A stretch of 45,946 nt of DNA from a virus. Positions 36,804-44,448 of the stretch are shown here, piece by piece. The stretch's first letter is position 1. Every line of letters starts with the position of its first letter. Location of the stretch: the IMG/VR virus record IMGVR_UViG_3300029682_000009, positions 1 through 45,946 of that record; one strand, written 5' to 3'. The notes below the pieces were generated by a model that saw nothing but the letters and a program-made list of their open reading frames with translations, ran no database searches and had not been told where the DNA came from. A program made the translations under genes and the position numbers.

Positions 36804-36890
36804 TGGTGCCCGGGACTGGACTCGAACCAGCACGCCCGCGAAGGCGCTAGCACCTGAAGCTAGTGCGTCTACCAATTTCGCCACCCGGGC
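36804..36890 (-). tRNA. tRNA-Leu (anticodon CAG), complete, CCA encoded
   Basis: GCCCGGGTGGCGAAATTGGTAGACGCACTAGCTTCAGGTGCTAGCGCCTTCGCGGGCGTGCTGGTTCGAGTCCAGTCCCGGGCACCA: 7-bp acceptor stem, CTAGC/GCTAG anticodon stem, loop TTCAGGT, long variable arm, TTCGAGT T-loop. Confidence 0.9.
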
Positions 36891-37889: not shown

Positions 37890-38129
37890 TTACTTGCTAC
37901 TGTAGCGCTTTTCGACAGTATTCAATAGGTCCTCGAACCTCTTGCAGTAATCGTCGACACTCTGCTCCCAACTCAAGACATCGAACTGTGTCTCGATCGG
38001 CAGCGCTCTTGGCTCTTTTTTCAAGACTGGTGATGCGGGAGCGCAAGCGGTCAGAGTCAGCGCGAGCGTTAGATTCAGCAGCACGCATCTCGGCGAGAGC
38101 GATAGCCTGATTTTTGTATTGTGTCTCAT
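37890..38129 (-). CDS. o-spanin (outer-membrane lipoprotein, overlapped in i-spanin frame +1)
   Basis: Start set at MRHNTKIRLSLSPRCVLLNLTLALTLTAC lipobox; lies within and 7 nt beyond the i-spanin gene. Confidence 0.65.
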   Translation of the reverse strand: MRHNTKIRLSLSPRCVLLNLTLALTLTACAPASPVLKKEPRALPIETQFDVLSWEQSVDDYCKRFEDLLNTVEKRYSSK

Positions 38130-38277
38130 AATTTTTGACCGTAGCTGTGAGTTCTGAGATTTGAGCTTGAGCAATTTTCAACTGCTCAGAATTCTGACCA
38201 TTGTGAAGGCCAAAAAAATAAGCGCCAGCAACTATCAAAGCGCCGGCGCCTATCTTTACCAATTCAAAAGGATTCAT
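37897..38277 (-). CDS. i-spanin
   Basis: N-terminal TM IGAGALIVAGAYFFGL followed by coiled coil; after endolysin. Confidence 0.7.
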   Translation of the reverse strand: MNPFELVKIGAGALIVAGAYFFGLHNGQNSEQLKIAQAQISELTATVKNYETQYKNQAIALAEMRAAESNARADSDRLRSRITSLEKRAKSAADRDTVRCLELGAECRRLLQEVRGPIEYCRKALQ

Positions 38278-38774
38278 CCCATCAATTTCACCTCGTCCTC
38301 ACGTCTATTCATGAGACCCGGAAGGATTTCGTACATCTGTTTCCCGTTTTCATCCTTAACCAGATTCCCGTTCCTATCCCTGATTTTCTTTTTTGCAAAA
38401 GATCGAAATCCTTCTTTTGCCAACTCGAGTTTTCCGGAATTCAAATATCCGAGTGTCTTAGATTTAGCAACTGCGCTCACTCCCAGGTTAAATGCCAAAT
38501 CTAATAATGCGATGTACTGTCCTTCAGTCAGTTTGCAAGTAACGTAAGGGGCAAGTCCCTCGGCGTGCTCGATCAAATCATCGCGAATCAGCTTTTCGGC
38601 CTCTTGTCTGGTGATAATTTGACCAGATTTAACCCCTTTTGTGTGTCCATAGCCGATAGTGAGAGTGCCTCCCGGACAACGGTAGGCCTTCAATCGCAGA
38701 CCCTCCCACTTCTTAACAAAATCCTCTGCGATGAGAGGGTTCCATTGAGAAAACGCTAATTTTTCCTCATTCAT
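38274..38774 (-). CDS. Endolysin, GH24 (T4/lambda lysozyme-like)
   Basis: VKKWEGLRLKAYRCPGGTLTIGYGHTKGV motif. Confidence 0.85.
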   Translation of the reverse strand: MNEEKLAFSQWNPLIAEDFVKKWEGLRLKAYRCPGGTLTIGYGHTKGVKSGQIITRQEAEKLIRDDLIEHAEGLAPYVTCKLTEGQYIALLDLAFNLGVSAVAKSKTLGYLNSGKLELAKEGFRSFAKKKIRDRNGNLVKDENGKQMYEILPGLMNRREDEVKLMG

Positions 38775-39252
38775 TTTGATTCCCTCCTAAATGAACCTTT
38801 CCTTTGATGCGTTTTTCGTGTTCAGTTTGAACGGTCTCCAACATTTCTCTGATTCTGTGGGGAATAATTTGACCGAACCCCGCTTTCTCAACGTTTTCAA
38901 GAATTGAGATCAATTCATTCAGAGAAAGAGCACCAATTGCCCACGCCCCGATCCATGGTTCATTGAATATCTGATCCACTCCATGAAACCCAATAGCAAC
39001 TAAGAGGATGATGAATTTCCGGATCAACCCTTTGAGTCCGACACGGCTCGACCAAGTTCCGGTTCTGGCAGCGGCTACGATCCCGCTCAGATAGTCGAAG
39101 ACAACAAAGCCAAACAACCAGTAGAAAAGGTTTTGATGCTCCCCCATGAGACTGCTTATGAGGGAAGTAAAACATCCAGCAATGGTTAAAAAGAAACTCT
39201 TGAGAACGCCGGAATCAAAACTGTTAAGACGGCTTAAAAATTGATCCCACAT
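38767..39252 (-). CDS. Holin (multi-TM, holin_4-like recall)
   Basis: 161 aa with several TM segments, 8-nt overlap with endolysin start. Confidence 0.65.
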   Translation of the reverse strand: MWDQFLSRLNSFDSGVLKSFFLTIAGCFTSLISSLMGEHQNLFYWLFGFVVFDYLSGIVAAARTGTWSSRVGLKGLIRKFIILLVAIGFHGVDQIFNEPWIGAWAIGALSLNELISILENVEKAGFGQIIPHRIREMLETVQTEHEKRIKGKVHLGGNQNE

Positions 39253-39310: not shown

Positions 39311-39340
39311 AAAAAAAGAAAGCCCCTCAAGTCGAGGGGC
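39311..39340 (-). terminator. Strong rho-independent terminator closing the structural operon
   Basis: Minus strand GCCCCTC-GACTT-GAGGGGC-TTTCTTTTTTT, directly after paralog 6 stop. Confidence 0.8.
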
Positions 39341-39347
39341 GGAGTGT

Positions 39348-39734
39348 TTAAGAAGCCGTTGCTCCAATGGAAGGAACAAAAAAGATTGTGGTTCCCTCAG
39401 TTTGATTAGTGCTTGCAGTAATTTGATAACCTAAAGTGCCACCTTTATTTACTGGAATATAGACAGCTGGCCATTGCAACAGGCTGGATTCGTTTGTTTG
39501 GATGCGAGAATGAACGGACGCTTGAATCGCTATAACGAGTATTCCGTTTCCGCCGGTAATGCAAAAATATCCGCTCGTGGGAGCTGTGTAGTTCCCCGTA
39601 AAACTTCCCATTGCATTTTCTTTTACAACGATTCGTCTATACCACCCATCTGGCATTACCTGGCCAACAATGAAATCTAAATCCGTTTTCTTAAAAAACT
39701 TAGAGAGGAGGAGCGTAAACAATGATTTCAGCAT
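39348..39734 (-). CDS. MLK-leader family paralog 6
   Basis: MLKSLFTLLLSKFFKK...APTSGYFCITG...IPVNKGGTLGY...IFFVPSIGATAS; GGAGG RBS. Confidence 0.65.
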   Translation of the reverse strand: MLKSLFTLLLSKFFKKTDLDFIVGQVMPDGWYRRIVVKENAMGSFTGNYTAPTSGYFCITGGNGILVIAIQASVHSRIQTNESSLLQWPAVYIPVNKGGTLGYQITASTNQTEGTTIFFVPSIGATAS

Positions 39735-40543
39735 GACGCACCTCCTAAACCCACCTCACGTTTGACTGACAAACGGGATGAAGTGAAGGATCGAATACTG
39801 TCCTCGGTTATCTGCTCTTGCCTTGAAAGAAACCGTTTGGCCTCTATTAACCTGCACTGTAAAACCTTGGTAAATTCCAGTGCCTGACTGATCGAGATTA
39901 AATCTCGCACCAGAGGCGATGACTTCCAAGTAACAAGCTCCTGACGAACAAGATTGCCCAAGCACAAGCAAACCGTCCGCTGGTGGAGTGTAAGTATGCA
40001 AGTTATTATCGTTTGGAAGCGAAAGCTCGACAGTGTTTGAGGGGGCCGTGTTACGCTGTTGAGCGACCCACTCCTTCTTACTAACAAGGAACTTCTCCGC
40101 AAAGAGCTGTACCAAGTTTTTAAGCATAGGCCACCTCCTTGCAGAAGAGCGTTCTTAAGAGATTGCCCCCCCCCGCCGATGGTTTTAGTAAACCAGCATT
40201 CAATGTTTTTAGCTTGTCTAGCGCATAACGTAAAGACTTGCCCTTTGGCTACCGGACAGGCGCACAAAAGAATGTCTCCCACAACTTGCGGAGTTGTAAA
40301 GACGTTTATGTTCGTTGTTTGGGCTGAGGCAATGCAAGTGGCAGTGTCTGCCGTAAACCTTATGCACGCGAAGCCATCAGTTGGGGCAACTCCGTTGAAA
40401 ACAGAACTCCATCCGTCAATAACCGTAGTTGTCGGAGTAAGTATCACGTTGTTGGTTGAAGGCATTGCCTGATGTCCTACAAGCTCGGATTCCTGTTTGC
40501 TGTAGAACCTGCTCAGCAGGAGGCTCAGAATGTTTTTCAGCAT
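39728..40543 (-). CDS. MLK-leader family paralog 4, as assembled read through a G9 tract into the +1 frame of paralog 5
   Basis: MLKNILSLLLSRFYSK...APTDGFACIRF...CPVAKGQVFTL...CWFTKTIGGGG then R/S/L-rich extension; family-like part is about 40175..40543. Confidence 0.55.
   Translation of the reverse strand: MLKNILSLLLSRFYSKQESELVGHQAMPSTNNVILTPTTTVIDGWSSVFNGVAPTDGFACIRFTADTATCIASAQTTNINVFTTPQVVGDILLCACPVAKGQVFTLCARQAKNIECWFTKTIGGGGQSLKNALLQGGGLCLKTWYSSLRRSSLLVRRSGSLNSVTRPPQTLSSFRFQTIITCILTLHQRTVCLCLGNLVRQELVTWKSSPLVRDLISISQALEFTKVLQCRLIEAKRFLSRQEQITEDSIRSFTSSRLSVKREVGLGGASC
39756..40127 (-). CDS. MLK-leader family paralog 5
   Basis: MLKNLVQLFAEKFLVSKK...PPADGLLVLGQ...VQVNRGQTVSF...LHFIPFVSQT; AAGGAGG RBS. 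Confidence 0.65.
   Translation of the reverse strand: MLKNLVQLFAEKFLVSKKEWVAQQRNTAPSNTVELSLPNDNNLHTYTPPADGLLVLGQSCSSGACYLEVIASGARFNLDQSGTGIYQGFTVQVNRGQTVSFKARADNRGQYSILHFIPFVSQT
40166..40174 (-). repeat. G9 homopolymer (coding strand) at C-terminus of paralog 4
   Basis: + strand gattg-ccccccccc-gccgatggtttt. Confidence 0.95.
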
Positions 40544-41334
40544 AATGCGCCTCCTGTTTGGAGGTTATTTAGACGATTCGTTGCGAACAAAAGTAAGGTT
40601 CCCCGAACCCGAGTAGACGCCAAGATCCGCAATGATTGTGTCACCCTTCTGTATCGGGATCGAGGCCCATTTCCACCCACTAGTGACGTTAGTGAGATAG
40701 CTAACCTTTCTTGTGGAGTTTTCAAGTCTGAACCACTTATTGGCGACGTCATTAGCCCCTCCAATCTGAAACACGGCCCAACCACTAAATGGGGCAATGA
40801 TATCTTGTTGACCTCCTCCCTGAACGTTTTGGTTCTGTACTGTTGTACCCGGCCCACATTGGTAAGCAATGTCAGGATACTTGCTTTTGAGAAAACTTTC
40901 GGCGAAAAGTTGAACGAGGGCTTTAAGCATGACAGAACCCTCCGAACAAATATATTATACCCCCCCCCGATGGTTTTCACTAATCGGACGGTAATTTGCT
41001 CTAGGTATCGGCCATAAACAGAAAAGCGCTGCCCTTTTGAAACGGGCGTGAATAAATTCAGGATTTCACCTCCCGGATTAGATGTCCCTGTAGTCGTAAT
41101 TTGCAACGCCTGAGTATTTATCTGGAAAAATCCTTTATCGGATGTAGTACGACCCACGGCCCAAATATAACCATCTGATACCGCGGTTGAATTAGATAAA
41201 ACCGGTCCCCAGTTGTCTACTGAAGCTGAAGGGTTGTAGTCTACAGGTACTGCCGAGCCGGGCTTAGAAGCGTGTCCCGCCTGTGCTGGTGTCGTTCGGC
41301 TATCGAGTAGCCGCTGAATAAGTTGTTTTAGCAT
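40537..41334 (-). CDS. MLK-leader family paralog 2, as assembled read through a G9 tract into the +1 frame of paralog 3
   Basis: MLKQLIQRLLDS...AVSDGYIWAVG...TPVSKGQRFSVY...VRLVKTIGGG then junk-like extension; family-like part is about 40960..41334. Confidence 0.55.
   Translation of the reverse strand: MLKQLIQRLLDSRTTPAQAGHASKPGSAVPVDYNPSASVDNWGPVLSNSTAVSDGYIWAVGRTTSDKGFFQINTQALQITTTGTSNPGGEILNLFTPVSKGQRFSVYGRYLEQITVRLVKTIGGGYNIFVRRVLSCLKPSFNFSPKVFSKASILTLLTNVGRVQQYRTKTFREEVNKISLPHLVVGPCFRLEGLMTSPISGSDLKTPQERLAISLTSLVGGNGPRSRYRRVTQSLRILASTRVRGTLLLFATNRLNNLQTGGALC
40565..40930 (-). CDS. MLK-leader family paralog 3
   Basis: MLKALVQLFAESFLKSK...APFSGWAVFQIG...IPIQKGDTIIA...LTFVRNESSK; GGAGGG RBS. 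Confidence 0.65.
   Translation of the reverse strand: MLKALVQLFAESFLKSKYPDIAYQCGPGTTVQNQNVQGGGQQDIIAPFSGWAVFQIGGANDVANKWFRLENSTRKVSYLTNVTSGWKWASIPIQKGDTIIADLGVYSGSGNLTFVRNESSK
40960..40968 (-). repeat. G9 homopolymer (coding strand) at C-terminus of paralog 2
   Basis: + strand tatattata-ccccccccc-gatggtttt. Confidence 0.95.
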
Positions 41335-41369
41335 TTAAGCTCCTTGCCGAGCCTAAATGCTCGGCGTTA

Positions 41370-41769
41370 TTAGATTGGGCAGAAATAGCAATAAACCATT
41401 CCGGCACTCATGCCATAGTGGTATTCAACTTGCTGTCCTTTTCTGATGTACATGTATGCTCCAAGATTGGAGCCAGGTAGTTGGAGTCTTGTTAGGGTCG
41501 GCCAATAATCTTGGTTTTTATTGCGGACACCAACAAATATCGCTTGCGTTGCATAAATCCAGGCAACCCCGTCTGCTGGAGCGACATAAATAAAAGCGTC
41601 TGTGCCCGTAGCTGTATGGACCAAGATATTTCCTGAAATGAAATCAGAAATGCCTATCTCTGACGACCTTTTCCCATATATAGTTAAACTACCCCCCCCC
41701 ACAGCCGCCGCTCACTGATCTGCGAGGAACGAATAAGCTACACAACAGACTTGCTAATTGTTTAAACAT
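41370..41769 (-). CDS. MLK-leader family paralog 1, interrupted at a G9 tract (phase-OFF as assembled)
   Basis: Leader MFKQLASLLCSLFVPRRSVSGGCGGG stops at TAG 41689..41691; body SLTIYGKRSS...APADGVAWIYA...IRKGQQVEY...VYCYFCPI open in the adjacent frame to 41370. Confidence 0.6.
41692..41700 (-). repeat. G9 homopolymer (coding strand) 23 codons into paralog 1
   Basis: + strand aacta-ccccccccc-acagccgccg. Confidence 0.95.
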
Positions 41770-42376
41770 TGAAAAAACCTCCTTGTCTCATAGAGTTGCG
41801 GGCATCAACTGCCTGCTCCAATTCGTAGGCCAAAGCTTCCGGAAATGCCGGATAGTCGATAAAAGGAAAGCTAGGCTTGTCCGGAAGATCTTTAAGTGCT
41901 TGGCGATAATTCAATAACGCCTGTCGATCTTCTTCAGTTAATTGAGCTCTCTTCGCCTTGGCGGCTGACTGCACAGTAATGTCCGGGAGCTGAACATACT
42001 TATCAGTGTCAGAGATTCGAGCATTGCGCTCTCCTCTAACTTCTTGTTCGTAACGCTCTTGGACAAATTTGTCATCCAGTTCAGGAAGTTCTGTTGAAAG
42101 GTAGTAATTACCGTCAGCACTGTGGAAATAGCCTTGAGGACTGGGCTCAAGCTTCCAATATTTGATGATTACTCCATCATCTCGCTTAAATCTTTCGGAT
42201 AGCTTGTAATGGCTCTCTGCGTACGCCTCATCTTTGGGATCTGTAAACGCGTGCTGACTCGGTGCATTGGAGGAAACAACAATTCTTCCGTCCGAGTCCT
42301 TCAGTGAGTATTTTGCCAGCGGCTGGCTCATTGCCTTGGCAAGCATTTCCTGCCTAACTTGTTCTAAGGTCTTCAT
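41762..42376 (-). CDS. Tail fibre assembly/chaperone protein
   Basis: 204 aa; C-terminal DRQALLNYRQALKDLPDKPSFPFIDYPAFPE resembles Tfa-type motif; follows fibre genes. Confidence 0.6.
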   Translation of the reverse strand: MKTLEQVRQEMLAKAMSQPLAKYSLKDSDGRIVVSSNAPSQHAFTDPKDEAYAESHYKLSERFKRDDGVIIKYWKLEPSPQGYFHSADGNYYLSTELPELDDKFVQERYEQEVRGERNARISDTDKYVQLPDITVQSAAKAKRAQLTEEDRQALLNYRQALKDLPDKPSFPFIDYPAFPEALAYELEQAVDARNSMRQGGFFNV

Positions 42377-42396: not shown

Positions 42397-43404
42397 TTAA
42401 TTTGTCGATGGTGTTTCTGACTCAGCAGAGTTTTTGGCATCATCAATTTCTTGCTGGGTACCACCGTTTTCAAGGATCAGTTCTTCGAGAATCGGACACA
42501 GGTAGTCATCAACGTGACCATTGAAATAAGTTTCAGCCCAAGATTCCGCACCGGCTGTAAAGTTGATATTCGACCGCGCAGTGGTCTGTTGCGTCTCTGT
42601 AAGGGCTTGAGCCGCCTCGTATGAGACACTCGGCGTTAAATCCGTGTAGTCCGCAGATAAAAGAGCTGTCCCGGCAGATGTGTCCACAGACGCAATCGTG
42701 AACATTCTTCCATCTGTTCCGACTACGGTGTCACCAGCTTTAATGTTGCCTTGAGGCTTCAAATCCGAGATTTGAATAGTGGCCGAAACTTGGAGCGCTT
42801 GATTGATTACTCTGACAGCATAGGCACTTGCCGCCGCCTCTAAAGCTTTCGCTTCCGCAGTCTGCGCAGCAGTCTGGGCGGTTGTTGCCGCCGTTTGTGC
42901 GGTTTCAGCATTGCTCTGGGCCGTTTCTGCTGCCTGTTGCGCCGCCTGAGCAGTTTGCAGAGATTGGGCCGCATTGTTAGCCGCTGTTTGGGCACTAGCA
43001 GCTGAACCTTGAGCGGCAGTCTGAGCCGCTGAAGCCGAAGTTTGTGCCGAGTTCGCCGTTGTAACTGCCACCGTGGAAGCATCGACCGCACTCTTAGATT
43101 GAGCAATAGCAGTCTGTATATCTGCATCCCAATCGTCGACTACTTGCTTCAAAGTCTCAACTTTTTCATTTGCAGCATTCGCTTCCGCTAATGCATTCGA
43201 AGAAGTTGAATTTGCTGTCTGTGCTGTTTGCCGAGCTTCCTTAGCGATCGATAGAGCTTCTTCGGAATTGTCAGAGGCTTGGTCTGCGTACGCGCCAACA
43301 TCGTTAATGGCGTCTTCCGTCTGCTGAAGAACTTCGGGGCCGCTGATAACTCCGGTTCCTGTCGGCGTGTAATGAAATTGGAATTTCGAATCTGCCATGA
43401 TCAA
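42397..43404 (-). CDS. Tail fibre protein with Ala/Gln-rich coiled-coil shaft
   Basis: 335 aa; AQTSASAAQTAAQGSAASAQTAANNAAQSLQTAQAAQQAAETAQSNAETAQTAATTAQTAAQTAEAKA low-complexity repeats. Confidence 0.65.
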   Translation of the reverse strand: MIMADSKFQFHYTPTGTGVISGPEVLQQTEDAINDVGAYADQASDNSEEALSIAKEARQTAQTANSTSSNALAEANAANEKVETLKQVVDDWDADIQTAIAQSKSAVDASTVAVTTANSAQTSASAAQTAAQGSAASAQTAANNAAQSLQTAQAAQQAAETAQSNAETAQTAATTAQTAAQTAEAKALEAAASAYAVRVINQALQVSATIQISDLKPQGNIKAGDTVVGTDGRMFTIASVDTSAGTALLSADYTDLTPSVSYEAAQALTETQQTTARSNINFTAGAESWAETYFNGHVDDYLCPILEELILENGGTQQEIDDAKNSAESETPSTN

Positions 43405-44448
43405 TTACTCCGGCAAGCGCAAGAAATAAGCGAGCGTGTAAAAAGGCGGCTCATTGGTAACGCCTGTGATCTTTGCGTTAGCTGTTAAGGTGTGCGTGTG
43501 CGTTTGACTTCCACCAGTAGAACCGATACTCAATCCATGCTGATGAGAGCCGTTAGAAGATGTTTCTCCCGTCCAAGTTCTGGACGCATCGATATTGAAA
43601 ACACCTCGACCATTTTGACGACCATCGGAGCATCCGGGATGATCGCCTACGTAAACAAGAGGACCGTTACCAATCACGCTCAACCAGTTGGCGGAAATTT
43701 GTCCGGTGATGTTCATTGAACCTCTTGTGTGGGTATGAGCACCTGCAGGAGATGTGCTACCTGAATGAGAATGTGCTGGCATCTGTGCGGCCGTCAGCGC
43801 AGTAGCACCAACTGTGCCGTTAACGGTCAAATCTGGAATCTCAATAGTTGAAGCACCGCCAGTTGTGCCCGAATCTTTTGGTAAAGAGCCTTTTATAAAT
43901 TTTCCAATCAAGTTTGGAGTTACACCATTCTTCCCGTCACTCTGGCCATCACAAAGGATCCAACCTTCGTCGGCTTGAGTAGTACCCCAAAAAACTGGGC
44001 GTCTCCCATCACTTCCACCTAATGTCACGTTATGAAACGGAACTACGGCGCCGGCTGGAACGGTAATGTCGATATTTTTCCAAACTGCTCTGTTAGTTCC
44101 AGGCGCCACCTTTGTGGTTGATGGTCCGTTGGCTTGGATGCAGCGGTACTTAGTCCCATTCTGCATAACCTCGTTCCCAACTTCGTAGTCCAAGAGAGCG
44201 GAATAATTCATAATCCCGCCCTGTTGATACCACAGCAAAAATTGAGAAAGCAAGAAAAAGACGCCATTGAAGTCCGATTTAAACGGAGGAATGCCGCCTT
44301 GTTCGATGGGAATAGCATTTTCTCGTCCCCAACCTATTTGCTGAGAGAGTCGTCCTAAACCAGCTTCTTCTGAAGTTAACGGAGGAATGGTAATTTCTCC
44401 GTCCTGGGCGATAGCCGCGCTTAATTGATACTTTGGATAATTACTCAT
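43405..44448 (-). CDS. Tail fibre / tail-collar domain protein
   Basis: GWILCDGQSDGKNGVTPNLIGKFIKGS collar-type motif; MPAHSHSGSTSPAGAHTHT and GSHQHG..QTHTHT His-x-His repeats. Confidence 0.7.
   Translation of the reverse strand: MSNYPKYQLSAAIAQDGEITIPPLTSEEAGLGRLSQQIGWGRENAIPIEQGGIPPFKSDFNGVFFLLSQFLLWYQQGGIMNYSALLDYEVGNEVMQNGTKYRCIQANGPSTTKVAPGTNRAVWKNIDITVPAGAVVPFHNVTLGGSDGRRPVFWGTTQADEGWILCDGQSDGKNGVTPNLIGKFIKGSLPKDSGTTGGASTIEIPDLTVNGTVGATALTAAQMPAHSHSGSTSPAGAHTHTRGSMNITGQISANWLSVIGNGPLVYVGDHPGCSDGRQNGRGVFNIDASRTWTGETSSNGSHQHGLSIGSTGGSQTHTHTLTANAKITGVTNEPPFYTLAYFLRLPE

What the first reader, a model, noticed from the sequence alone, without database searches (positions are those of the whole stretch)
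39348..41769. Tandem array of six diverged paralogous small genes (M-L/F-K-x-L leader family) at the distal end of the tail-fibre module
Seen: there are six same-strand ORFs of about 110-130 codons. At least the four downstream junctions I read (paralogs 3-6) carry GGAGG-type RBSs. The ORFs begin MFKQLASLLCSLF / MLKQLIQRLLDS / MLKALVQLFAESF / MLKNILSLLLSRF / MLKNLVQLFAEKF / MLKSLFTLLLSKF. They share internal motifs: A/P-P-x-D/S-G-aromatic in the first half, K/R-G-Q/D/G-x-hydrophobic about 30 aa from the end, and a hydrophobic F/V-rich last strand. The amino-acid motifs are kept while the nucleotide sequence is diverged (compare the starts of paralogs 3 and 5), so this is an old, maintained expansion. 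The array sits between the fibre-assembly gene and the terminator at 39311..39340 that closes the late operon. Inference: these may be exchangeable receptor-binding tips, adhesins or fibre accessory proteins. The motif pattern is reminiscent of C1q/TNF-like jelly rolls with an N-terminal docking helix, but I cannot verify that by eye. I do not recognise a named family.
Basis: partly seen in the sequence, partly recalled or inferred. Interest (0 to 1): 0.85.

Follow-up and report, generated by a model that had tools for sequence, protein, structure and literature searches.

The report
Poly-G-switched tail-fibre knob gene array
A gut-bacterium (Parasutterella) phage carries six small genes for alternative tail-fibre tip domains, wired together by three hypermutable runs of nine G's and by a stop-free "bypass" reading frame that probably lets ribosomes skip a gene, so the virus may vary its host-recognition proteins at random.

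Summary
The only three G/C homopolymers of 7 or more bases in the 46-kb window are three G9 tracts, all inside this array. One splits paralog 1 after its leader. The other two sit at the 3' ends of paralogs 2 and 4, which therefore read on for 265 and 271 codons through paralogs 3 and 5 in the +1 frame and stop on the start codons of paralogs 4 and 6.

Near-identical contigs from other samples carry G7-G11 at these sites. Across 90 related loci, all 47 non-redundant genes that follow a tract have a stop-free +1 frame (5.6 stops expected). None of 79 other family genes does. The bypass peptide itself is not conserved.

The proteins have an N-terminal helix and a beta-sandwich. They are homologous to the C-terminal knobs of bona fide long tail fibres, and the array almost always follows the fibre-assembly gene.

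Best reading: a phase-variable set of receptor-binding knobs in which each tract routes ribosomes either into the next gene or past it. The architecture is shown; the expression logic and virion role are inferred. It is a new variant of phage poly-G contingency loci, so far seen only in Sutterellaceae phages.

The parts
43405..44448 (-). Tail fibre protein (347 aa): N-terminal fibre attachment region plus a collar-type C-terminal part. It has no knob of the family described here.
   Evidence: PHROG phrog_12796/phrog_1800 and a weak Pfam Collar hit. The family HMM finds no match in it (WIN row).
42397..43404 (-). Ala/Gln-rich coiled-coil fibre protein (335 aa), also without a family knob.
   Evidence: Alanine_zipper hit and weak tail-fibre PHROGs. 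Homologues occur in 51 of 92 related loci.
41762..42376 (-). Tail-fibre assembly chaperone (Tfa-like, 204 aa). Its stop overlaps the start of K/P1.
   Evidence: PF16778 at 2e-11 and phrog_4912 at 3e-33. A homologue lies in 85 of 92 loci; the other 7 include contigs that begin within the array.
41370..41769 (-). K (paralog 1): the leader MFKQLASLLCSLF is split from its body by the G9 tract, so it is OFF here. G8 or G11 would give an intact 132/133-aa protein.
   Evidence: Intact 130-138 aa forms at 91-95% identity exist elsewhere (P0053, P0061, P0064, P0065).
41692..41700 (-). Tract T1: G9 on the coding strand, after codon 23 of K.
   Evidence: G9, G11 and variant contexts occur in near-identical contigs. 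Across the loci, K is OFF in 32 and ON in 7.
41346..41365 (-). Conserved stem-loop (GCCGAGC-ATTTA-GGCTCGGC) just upstream of the Shine-Dalgarno sequence of A1/P2.
   Evidence: Compensatory variants occur in other loci (CGGGGC/GCCCCG, CTCGGGC/CCGGGCG). Function unknown.
40537..41334 (-). A1 (paralog 2) in its read-through (L) state: knob core 41334-40969, then 140 codons of the +1 frame of B1, with the stop in ATGCTGA of A2.
   Evidence: G10 gives a 126-aa form. G8 gives 136 aa, ending in ATGCTTAA of B1.
40960..40968 (-). Tract T2: G9 encoding the C-terminal ...KTIGGG of A1.
   Evidence: Near-identical contigs carry G8, G9 or G11 followed by a scaffold gap.
40565..40930 (-). B1 (paralog 3, 121 aa), leader MLKALVQLFAESF. 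Its +1 frame is stop-free.
   Evidence: 0 stops observed, 4.6 expected.
40517..40556 (-). Predicted hairpin pairing the Shine-Dalgarno sequence of A2 (CAGGAGGC) with leader codons 7-9 (GCCUCCUG).
   Evidence: Predicted pairing probability 0.99. The same feature occurs in genes that follow B across the loci (mean 0.91). Prediction only.
39728..40543 (-). A2 (paralog 4) in its read-through (L) state: knob core 40543-40175, then the +1 frame of B2, with the stop in ATGCTGA of C.
   Evidence: AlphaFold2: knob pLDDT 91-96; block-mean pLDDT 30-52 over residues 131-210; one long helix (210-267, block-mean pLDDT 55-87) predicted on only two aligned sequences.
40166..40174 (-). Tract T3: G9 encoding the C-terminal ...KTIGGGG of A2.
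   Evidence: Near-identical contigs carry G7, G8, G9, G10 and an interrupted GGGGAGGGGG.
39756..40127 (-). B2 (paralog 5, 123 aa), leader MLKNLVQLFAEKF. Its +1 frame is stop-free.
   Evidence: 0 stops observed, 3.4 expected. AlphaFold2 pLDDT 86: helix 2-22 plus a beta-sandwich at 44-120.
39706..39746 (-). Predicted hairpin pairing the Shine-Dalgarno sequence of C (AGGAGG) with leader codons (CUCCUCC).
   Evidence: Predicted pairing probability 0.97. Prediction only.
39348..39734 (-). C (paralog 6, 128 aa): last member, with no tract. Its start overlaps the stop of the A2 read-through frame.
39312..39340 (-). Intrinsic terminator that closes the fibre/knob operon.
   Evidence: 8-bp stem with 6 GC pairs followed by a T-run.

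Best explanation
The array K-(A-B)2-C encodes stand-alone versions of the distal knob (receptor-binding tip) of tail fibres. Each consists of a conserved N-terminal helix and a hypervariable beta-sandwich. They are made from the end of the late fibre operon. Three hypermutable G tracts act as contingency switches.

The tract in K is an ordinary ON/OFF frameshift switch.

The tract at the 3' end of each A gene is a three-way ribosome router:
- S frame: A ends at once, about 27 nt before B.
- M frame: A ends in the ATGCTTAA of B's start.
- L frame: ribosomes read through all of B in a stop-free +1 frame and terminate in the ATGCTGA of the next A or C gene.

The Shine-Dalgarno sequences of B genes, and of genes after B, are predicted to be buried in hairpins with their own leader codons. 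Their translation is therefore proposed to depend on ribosomes terminating nearby. Under this model S and M switch B on. L skips B but still delivers ribosomes to the downstream genes, so each switch is insulated from the others. Random tract changes would then yield phage progeny with different knob repertoires, a form of host-range bet-hedging.

Shown:
- the tracts and their length polymorphism;
- the three frame fates;
- the strictly conserved open frame, whose peptide is not conserved;
- homology to fibre knobs.

Inferred:
- B is silent in the L state;
- translational coupling operates;
- the knobs are incorporated into virions and bind receptors.
For: - The three G9 tracts are the only G/C runs of 7 or more bases in the window.
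- Tract length differs (7-11, plus an interrupted allele) between otherwise near-identical contigs from different samples. Assemblies break at tracts.
- In 90 further loci, arrays of 3-8 members show the same layout. C-terminal tract lengths are 7:8, 8:32, 9:113, 10:13, 11:3. All three fates are observed in nature: L 89, M 40, S 36.
- The +1 frame is open in 47 of 47 non-redundant genes that follow a tract and in 0 of 79 others. Expected stops are 5.6 per gene, and summed log10 P = -147.
- A B-type gene that has lost its upstream A gene and tract has acquired a +1 stop.
- The +1 peptide is no more conserved than the non-coding +2 frame, and codon-position substitution ratios are normal.
- All 45 non-redundant tracts have one short-tail frame and one frame that stops on B's start. 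In 39 of 45, a third frame stops on the start of gene +2.
- All 47 B genes begin ATG(nnn)CTTAAR.
- The spacing from B's stop to the next start is 21 or 24 nt in 162 of 165 cases.
- Predicted Shine-Dalgarno sequestration is 0.81 for B genes and 0.91 for genes after B. It is 0.02-0.06 for the gene after K, which has no bypass frame.
- Knob identity: AlphaFold2 models; the domain lies at the C-terminus of long proteins, three of which carry tail-fibre PHROG matches; the leader is conserved and the body hypervariable; a Tfa homologue lies in 85 of 92 loci.
Against: - There are no expression, read-level or virion data.
- Every member has a strong GGAGG and could initiate independently, so B may not be silent in the L state.
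- The hairpins are thermodynamic predictions on 85-nt pieces, and codon-shuffled controls already give 0.46-0.63.
- L is the commonest state (53%) and K is mostly OFF. Most genomes would then express only A and C forms.
- It is unknown whether A carrying a 140-aa tail still works.
- Consensus assemblies cannot prove high-frequency reversible switching, and homopolymer lengths are error-prone in sequencing.
- How a free knob would attach to a fibre is unknown.
Confidence: 0.55

Rival explanations
1. The G9 runs are programmed slippage sites for RNA polymerase or the ribosome. Every genome would then make fixed proportions of the S, M and L products, setting the A:B stoichiometry. DNA-level variation would be secondary.
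For: G9 is strongly preferred (113 of 169 C-terminal tracts). The tracts are always G on the sense strand and never C. Long G runs are slippery for tRNA-Gly re-pairing (general knowledge). The three-fate design would serve this mechanism equally well.
Against: Heritable length differences (7-11) between near-identical genomes are directly seen, and all state combinations occur. Known programmed frameshifts conserve the trans-frame protein; here it is not conserved.
Confidence: 0.15
2. The switch acts on the A protein itself. The long, basic, unstructured C-terminal tail (L state) inactivates or re-purposes the A knob, and the open frame is kept because a full-length tail is needed. B expression would be unaffected.
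For: The tract lies inside A. The tails are 127-151 aa, Leu/Ser/Arg-rich, with mean pI 10.7. AlphaFold2 predicts one long helix (residues 210-267, block-mean pLDDT 55-87) in the tail. Long forms make up 38 of 148 newly listed representative clusters.
Against: The tail sequence evolves like a non-coding frame. A disruptive tail would not need all ~122 codons open in 47 of 47 lineages, nor a stop exactly on the next start. In long fibres with tandem knobs, the chain continues after the same ...F-x-Y-A-x-G end, so extensions at that point are tolerated. The helix prediction rests on two sequences.
Confidence: 0.15
3. The small genes are not virion parts. They would be accessory or lysogenic-conversion (moron-type) genes carried at the end of the tail module, for example superinfection exclusion or host-surface modifiers, with phase-variable expression.
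For: Regions between tail-fibre and lysis genes often hold morons (general knowledge). There is no Pfam or PHROG assignment. No virion data exist.
Against: There is no promoter-like site on the coding strand within or before the array. K's start overlaps the Tfa stop, and a single terminator follows C. The proteins have no signal-peptide-like N-terminus. The domain is homologous to C-terminal knobs of tail fibres.
Confidence: 0.08
4. The frameshifts are sequencing or assembly errors, or decay (pseudogenes) in a defective prophage.
For: Homopolymers are error-prone. Three of the six genes are out of frame in this window.
Against: Tract positions, the three-fate design and the open frame are conserved across about 90 loci and 47 diverged lineages. 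The cultured type strain P. excrementihominis YIT 11859 shows the same layout, with four G9 tracts. Family genes are under ordinary purifying selection.
Confidence: 0.02

Closest known systems
Hypermutable poly-G tracts in receptor-binding protein genes of Campylobacter Fletchervirus phages (Sorensen et al. 2021, Cell Rep 35:109214; as summarised in PMC12633550, and cited in PMC12823448)
   Same: Both are phage-encoded G tracts of 7-11 bases in host-recognition genes. Length changes shift the frame and are thought to create phenotypically mixed progeny.
   Different: Here the host is Sutterellaceae and the phage is temperate. The targets are tandem, stand-alone knob paralogs. Most tracts sit at the 3' end of a gene, not inside it. 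Each is coupled to a conserved stop-free bypass frame over the next gene, with stop/start overlaps. I found no description of such a feature.
Bacterial and phage contingency loci (simple-sequence-repeat phase variation in Neisseria, Haemophilus and Campylobacter; T2/T4 loci in PMC12633550). Multi-level switches such as H. influenzae lic1 are cited from my own knowledge.
   Same: Slipped-strand length changes in a repeat give heritable, reversible frame changes. Three repeat phases can give three outcomes.
   Different: Classic loci switch the gene that contains the repeat, usually from its 5' end. Here K does that, but the A tracts leave the A knob intact and change where ribosomes terminate relative to the downstream cistrons.
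Alternative tail-fibre cassettes switched by DNA inversion (Mu G segment; van de Putte 1980, cited in PMC12823448; P1 C segment) and diversity-generating retroelements (BPP-1 Mtd; my own knowledge)
   Same: Both are a phage-encoded way to present alternative receptor-binding ends from one genome. The cassettes lie at the distal end of the fibre module, next to a Tfa-type chaperone.
   Different: There are no inverted repeats around the cassettes. No recombinase or reverse-transcriptase component was looked for beyond that. Switching here is by homopolymer slippage and translation, not by recombination or mutagenic retrohoming.
Separate adhesins that cap a fibre, such as gp38 of T2/T6/S16-type phages (my own knowledge)
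   Same: A small protein encoded just downstream of the fibre and chaperone genes would supply the receptor-binding surface.
   Different: There is no sequence relationship (no Pfam or PHROG hit). The fold is a beta-sandwich knob with an N-terminal helix. Attachment to the fibre is untested here.
Translational coupling by termination-reinitiation at overlapping stop/start codons with sequestered Shine-Dalgarno sequences (classical operon biology; my own knowledge)
   Same: ATGCTGA and ATGCTTAA overlaps, 21/24-nt spacers and predicted Shine-Dalgarno hairpins are the standard hallmarks.
   Different: Here the coupling partner is chosen by a hypermutable tract, and one route runs through an entire gene in a frame kept open solely for transit.
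Programmed -1 frameshift of tail assembly chaperones (lambda G/GT; my own knowledge)
   Same: A frame change near the 3' end of a tail-module gene yields a long C-terminally extended product that overlaps the next gene.
   Different: In G/GT the extension is a conserved functional domain made at a fixed ratio. Here the extension peptide is unconstrained and the frame is set by DNA tract length.

Membership tests
Contingency locus (repeat-mediated phase variation) | Homopolymer or short repeat long enough to slip (about 7 or more G/C bases), within or next to a coding region | tested here: met
   Three G9 tracts lie in coding sequence and are the only such runs in 46 kb. Tracts are conserved in position across about 90 loci.
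Contingency locus (repeat-mediated phase variation) | Repeat length differs between very close relatives while the flanks stay the same | tested here: met
   G7-G11 and an interrupted allele occur in near-identical contigs.
Contingency locus (repeat-mediated phase variation) | A length change alters the reading frame or the product | tested here: met
   Other assemblies call proteins of 126-142 aa and about 265 aa from the same gene.
Contingency locus (repeat-mediated phase variation) | High-frequency, reversible switching within a clonal population, with a phenotypic consequence | not testable with these tools
   Only consensus assemblies are available. A scaffold gap and a contig end at tracts hint at heterogeneity.
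Tail-fibre distal knob / receptor-binding tip domain | Sequence homology to the C-terminal domain of bona fide tail fibres | tested here: met
   The profile matches the C-terminal ~100 aa of P0181, P0236, P0170, P0196 and P0247, and an internal ~85-aa stretch of P0213, at whole-library E of 1e-11 to 1e-13. P0181, P0236 and P0213 have tail-fibre or collar N-termini in PHROGs. Shared motifs MPS..YI.L, YTAPADGWF, PVxKGD and FxFVYAxG are seen.
Tail-fibre distal knob / receptor-binding tip domain | Encoded in the tail-fibre module and co-transcribed with it | tested here: met
   K's start overlaps the Tfa stop, there is no internal promoter-like site on the coding strand, and one terminator follows C. 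A Tfa homologue lies in 85 of 92 loci.
Tail-fibre distal knob / receptor-binding tip domain | Present in virions at the fibre tip and binds a host receptor | not testable with these tools
   This needs virion mass spectrometry, cryo-EM and adsorption assays.
C1q/TNF-like trimeric jelly roll | Confident fold match to C1q/TNF heads | tested here: inconclusive
   C1q heads (2jg8_C, 1pk6_C, 6z6v) and a 'C1q-like' phage protein match at target-normalised TM 0.40-0.45 and E about 1e-3 to 5e-5. They rank alongside influenza HA heads, CBMs and other beta-sandwiches. No sequence hit in the PDB.
C1q/TNF-like trimeric jelly roll | Trimer formation | not testable with these tools
   No multimer prediction is available.
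Translationally coupled cistrons (termination-reinitiation) | The upstream stop overlaps or lies within about 25 nt of the downstream start | tested here: met
   ATGCTTAA and ATGCTGA overlaps, an S stop about 27 nt upstream, and B stop to next start of 21/24 nt.
Translationally coupled cistrons (termination-reinitiation) | The downstream ribosome-binding site is closed by structure unless the upstream gene is translated | tested here: inconclusive
   Predicted pairing is 0.81-0.91, against 0.02-0.06 for the gene after K. Shuffled controls give 0.46-0.63. No experiment.
Programmed ribosomal frameshift gene pair (G/GT-like) | A conserved, functional trans-frame protein segment | tested here: not met
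   +1-frame amino-acid identity equals that of the non-coding +2 frame (0.54 vs 0.55; 0.64 vs 0.63). Third-position substitution excess is normal.
Overprinted (dual-coding) gene | Purifying selection on the protein sequence in both frames | tested here: not met
   Only the absence of stops is conserved.
Invertible-segment or shufflon fibre switch | Inverted recombination sites flanking the cassettes | tested here: not met
   Only two weak inverted pairs (74-80% complementary) were found, and no cassette-flanking repeats. All cassettes lie in direct orientation.

The most novel reading that the evidence does not exclude
This would be a new kind of gene switch. A hypermutable tract at the 3' end of one cistron decides whether ribosomes stop and start the next cistron, or are carried past it to the cistron after. 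The carriage runs through a reading frame that evolution keeps free of stop codons purely as a transit lane, with no constraint on the peptide it encodes. Chained in series (K-(A-B)n-C), such routers would let a phage express combinatorial sets of receptor-binding knobs from one operon without polar effects.
Probability: 0.45. Interest if true: 0.9.

Novelty: new variant of a known kind. Interest (0 to 1): 0.8.

Why it matters
Phage poly-G contingency loci have so far been tied to a few lytic Campylobacter phages and, recently, to T-even phages. This locus would extend them to temperate phages of a common human gut commensal.

It also offers a clean, sequence-level example of selection for an open reading frame as such. 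Across 47 diverged genes there are zero stops where 5.6 per gene are expected, yet the peptide is not conserved. That is a testable case of translation itself being the selected function.

If the routing model holds, it is a compact design for insulated, combinatorial, stochastic control of tandem genes. It would also give a handle on how gut phages hedge host range. In addition, it defines an unannotated family of tail-fibre knob domains (1052 clusters at 50% identity; no Pfam or PHROG match for the six window proteins) that is useful for receptor-binding protein annotation.

For annotation practice, it explains why gene callers report 265-275-aa 'fusion' ORFs and split genes at these loci.

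Tried and rejected
- Pfam and PHROG scans of the six proteins gave nothing significant.
- Megablast of the region and tblastn of P6 against 50,697 phage records gave no match.
- A profile search of PDB sequences gave nothing.
- Foldseek against PDB and BFVD gave only generic beta-sandwich matches at TM 0.5 or below, so no structural family is claimed.
I replaced them with in-window pieces.
- The first genome-contig scan failed on a too-diverse alignment. The repeat with class-B sequences found only two species. It is pattern-limited to the B-type leader, so it is not proof of absence elsewhere.
- The idea that the 140-aa extension is a real overprinted domain was rejected on the codon-position and frame-identity test. 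The AlphaFold2 model of the long form is uninformative for the tail, because that part has an alignment depth of two.
- Neisseria/Haemophilus-type hosts, suggested by the poly-G tracts, were rejected. There is one chance DUS 10-mer and no USS, and homologues are named Parasutterella.
- Inversion-type switching was rejected.
- The Sorensen 2021 paper itself is not in the held library. It is cited only through other papers' summaries.
- I considered a leaderless K body starting from the GTG at the tract edge. The context is not conserved in L003, so I dropped it.

Full report
**What is in the sequence**

All genes of the region lie on the minus strand. Downstream of two fibre genes (44448-43405 and 43404-42397) and a Tfa-type fibre-assembly chaperone (42376-41762; PF16778, phrog_4912) lie six members of one protein family. 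No promoter-like site lies on the coding strand inside the array.

The window contains exactly three G/C homopolymers of seven or more bases. All three are G9 on the coding strand, and all lie inside this 2.4-kb array, at 41692-41700, 40960-40968 and 40166-40174.

- The first tract sits behind the leader of paralog 1, which I call K. As sequenced, K stops after 26 codons and its body continues in another frame. G8 or G11 would restore a 132/133-aa protein.
- The other two tracts encode the C-terminal '...KTIGGG' of paralogs 2 and 4 (A1 and A2). With G9, these genes have no stop at about 126 codons. They read on for 265 and 271 codons, through the whole of paralogs 3 and 5 (B1 and B2) in the +1 frame. 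They end in the sequence ATGCTGA that holds the start codon of A2 and of paralog 6 (C).
- With one G more, A ends after one to four further codons.
- With one G fewer, A ends in ATGCTTAA, on the start codon of B.

**The tracts vary between near-identical genomes**

Contigs from other metagenomes encode exactly the same paralog 6 and have essentially identical flanks. They carry G9, G11 or a GT-insertion variant at the first tract. At the second tract they carry G8, G9 or G11 followed by a scaffold gap. At the third they carry G7, G8, G9, G10 or an interrupted GGGGAGGGGG. Gene callers accordingly report the same genes as 126-142 aa or about 265-271 aa in different samples.

**The layout is conserved**

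A profile search of IMG/VR gave 80 further loci. One scan of species-representative genomes gave two more: P. excrementihominis YIT 11859 and an uncultured Sutterella.

- The arrays have three to eight members in the order K-(A-B)n-C.
- Sense-strand G tracts lie behind the K leader and at the 3' end of every A gene. Within the arrays the tracts are always G on the sense strand, never C.
- C-terminal tract lengths are 7 (8 cases), 8 (32), 9 (113), 10 (13) and 11 (3).

**The bypass frame is under selection**

In the window, B1 and B2 have no stop in the +1 frame, where 4.6 and 3.4 are expected from codon resampling (P = 0.002 and 0.016). The other four members have 4-8 stops. None of 660 +1-frame open runs in 51 other window genes reaches 120 codons.

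Across the loci there are 126 family genes that differ by more than 10% in nucleotide sequence. All 47 that follow a tract have a completely open +1 frame. None of the 79 others does, with a mean of 7.8 stops. The +2 frame is never open. Given their amino-acid sequences and family codon usage, 5.6 stops per B gene are expected, and the summed log10 probability of 47 open frames is -147. This treats the genes as independent, which overstates the figure but not the conclusion.

A B-type gene that sits directly behind Tfa, with no A gene or tract before it, has acquired one +1 stop (L039 and three redundant loci).

**The bypass peptide is not under selection**

For pairs of orthologues at 70-97% nucleotide identity, B genes show the usual excess of third-position changes (ratio 1.6-1.8, as in A genes). 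The amino-acid identity of the +1 translation equals that of the stop-ridden +2 translation: 0.54 against 0.55 in the 70-80% bin, and 0.64 against 0.63 in the 80-90% bin.

The tails are 127-151 aa, rich in Leu, Ser and Arg, with mean pI 10.7. AlphaFold2 on the long form of A2 gives a confident knob (pLDDT 91-96) and a low-confidence tail. It also predicts one long helix, but that prediction rests on two aligned sequences and is uninformative. What is conserved is therefore passage through the frame, not a product.

**Three fates and hallmarks of coupling**

- Each of the 45 non-redundant C-terminal tracts has one frame with a short tail and one frame that stops on B's start.
- In 39 of the 45, a third frame stops on the start of the gene after B. 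Which tract length gives which fate differs between lineages.
- All 47 B genes begin ATG(nnn)CTTAAR. This keeps the +1 frame open and places a TAA in the +2 frame. A and C genes mostly begin ATGCTGA, ATGCTAA or ATGTTAA, which places a stop in the +1 frame.
- B's own stop lies 21 or 24 nt before the next start in 162 of 165 cases.
- Predicted local folding pairs the Shine-Dalgarno sequence with the gene's own leader codons (the CCUCC encoding 'SLLLS'). The probability is 0.81 for B genes and 0.91 for genes after B. It is only 0.02-0.06 for the A gene that follows K, the one position where an OFF state drops ribosomes with no bypass frame.
- These are predictions only, and shuffled controls already reach 0.46-0.63.
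- All three fates are seen in natural assemblies (L 89, M 40, S 36) in many combinations. K is OFF in 32 and ON in 7.

**What the proteins are**

There is no Pfam, PHROG or PDB sequence match. AlphaFold2 gives an N-terminal helix (residues 2-22) and a beta-sandwich (44-120) for B2, with mean pLDDT 86. A2 gives the same knob. Foldseek finds only generic beta-sandwich or jelly-roll neighbours at TM 0.5 or below. These include influenza HA heads, C1q heads and 'C1q-like' phage proteins, CBMs, lactococcal phage tail accessories and a phage tail fibre.

The informative result is the exhaustive profile search. It found 1052 clusters at 50% identity. Among the best 150 listed hits are long proteins in which the domain, often twice in tandem and each time preceded by a helix ending '...AAHAAMPS', forms the C-terminus.

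- P0181 has the same N-terminal fibre family (phrog_12796) as the window's 347-aa fibre.
- P0236 and P0213 also score as tail or collar fibres.
- The window's own two fibre proteins lack this knob.
- Within the family, the leader is conserved (pairwise identity 0.60-0.81), a few scaffold motifs are kept, and the rest is at about 0.10.
- A Tfa homologue lies in 85 of 92 loci.

Together these results support stand-alone fibre knobs. They do not show virion incorporation or receptor binding.

**Most likely mechanism**

I read the locus as a phase-variable set of receptor-binding knobs.

- K carries a conventional ON/OFF tract.
- Each A tract is a three-way router. In the S and M frames, ribosomes terminate at or just before B's closed ribosome-binding site and start B.
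- In the L frame, ribosomes traverse B in the stop-free lane and terminate on the next start codon. B is skipped, while the downstream genes, which are themselves closed by hairpins, still receive ribosomes.

This single idea accounts for five observations:
- the perfect openness of the frame;
- the lack of peptide conservation;
- the stop/start overlaps;
- the 21/24-nt spacers;
- the contrast between sequestered and open Shine-Dalgarno sequences.

The steps from architecture to expression are inference. In the window as sequenced, K would be OFF, B1 and B2 bypassed, and A1, A2 (both with tails) and C made.

**Rivals**

- The G9 runs could be programmed slippage sites that give fixed product ratios.
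- The long tail could switch the A protein itself.
- The genes could be non-virion accessory genes.
- The frameshifts could be sequencing artefact or decay.

The evidence for and against each is given in the structured fields. None of them explains the full-length open frame together with its unconstrained peptide as well as the routing model does. The slippage model is compatible with the architecture and could operate alongside DNA-level variation.

**Comparison with what is known**

Phage poly-G tracts of 7-11 G in receptor-binding protein genes are known from Campylobacter Fletchervirus phages (Sorensen 2021, as summarised in PMC12633550 and cited in PMC12823448). Contingency loci have recently been described in T2 and T4 (PMC12633550). 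Alternative fibre ends are known from the Mu G segment (cited in PMC12823448). Cap adhesins such as gp38, translational coupling and G/GT frameshifting are cited from my own knowledge.

The present locus shares the principle of slippage-driven variation of host recognition. It differs in five respects:
- the stand-alone knob family;
- the tandem K-(A-B)n-C organisation;
- the 3'-terminal placement of the tracts;
- the three-fate design;
- the conserved transit frame.

Full-text searches for combinations of phase variation, translational coupling and homopolymer terms returned no title or abstract describing such a design. That is absence of evidence within a partial library, not proof of novelty.

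**Verdict**

I rate it a new variant of a known kind (a phage contingency locus for host recognition). It also has a component, the ribosome-routing bypass frame, that may be categorically new if the inferred expression logic is confirmed.

Noticed in passing
window 36804-36890 (-): A tRNA-Leu(CAG) gene lies just beyond the lysis cassette, the DUF1643 gene and a small NRDD-like ORF. In a near-identical contig (L003) an integrase gene follows the NRDD-like ORF. This is probably the prophage end or attachment region.
   Followed up: partly
window 41346-41365 (-): A conserved stem-loop lies between the stop of K and the Shine-Dalgarno sequence of the first A gene. Other loci show compensatory stem changes (GCCGAGC/GCTCGGC, CGGGGC/GCCCCG, CTCGGGC/CCGGGCG). 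It has no T-run, so it is not a terminator. It may keep this one ribosome-binding site open, or stabilise the mRNA.
   Followed up: partly
L004 ~3560 and L009 (tract T3 position); L024, L048, L052, L081: Some genomes carry 'locked' or decayed tracts (GGGGAGGGGG, G6, GTGGGGGG), yet the downstream B gene still has an open +1 frame. These look like recent fixations of one state.
   Followed up: partly
L039, L042, L043, L044 (gene at 6001-6372 in L039): A different phage with collagen-like fibre genes carries a single B-type knob gene directly after Tfa, with no tract. Its +1 frame holds one stop. This is a natural control for the bypass-frame selection, and a possible minimal form of the system.
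   Followed up: partly
L008 position 1; L004 ~2753-2775: One contig begins inside a G tract, and one scaffold has an N10 gap at a tract. Assemblers break there, as expected if reads disagree in tract length.
   Followed up: no
window 37890-38277 (-): An Rz-like gene (37897-38277) contains an embedded ORF in another frame (37890-38174) with a lipoprotein-like 'LTLTACA' motif, resembling Rz1. It lies downstream of the holin (38767-39252, Phage_holin_4_1) and the lysozyme (38274-38774).
   Followed up: no
window 42397-43404 (-) and L039 4671-5405: The fibre proteins encoded just upstream of Tfa in two otherwise different phages share a C-terminal motif, '...L.L.NG.TQ.EID.A'. This is a candidate docking site for Tfa or for the free knobs.
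   Followed up: no
P0111 (131 aa): A B1-type protein from another sample switches into the +1 (bypass) frame in mid-gene, at '...IPIQK|RRTPSS...'. This is a frameshift away from any long G tract. It could be an assembly error or a second, unexplored slippage site.
   Followed up: no
P0199, P0254, P0257: The knob domain also occurs in several copies inside very large cellular-looking proteins with SLH, PPC and Big domains. The fold is therefore not restricted to phage fibres.
   Followed up: no
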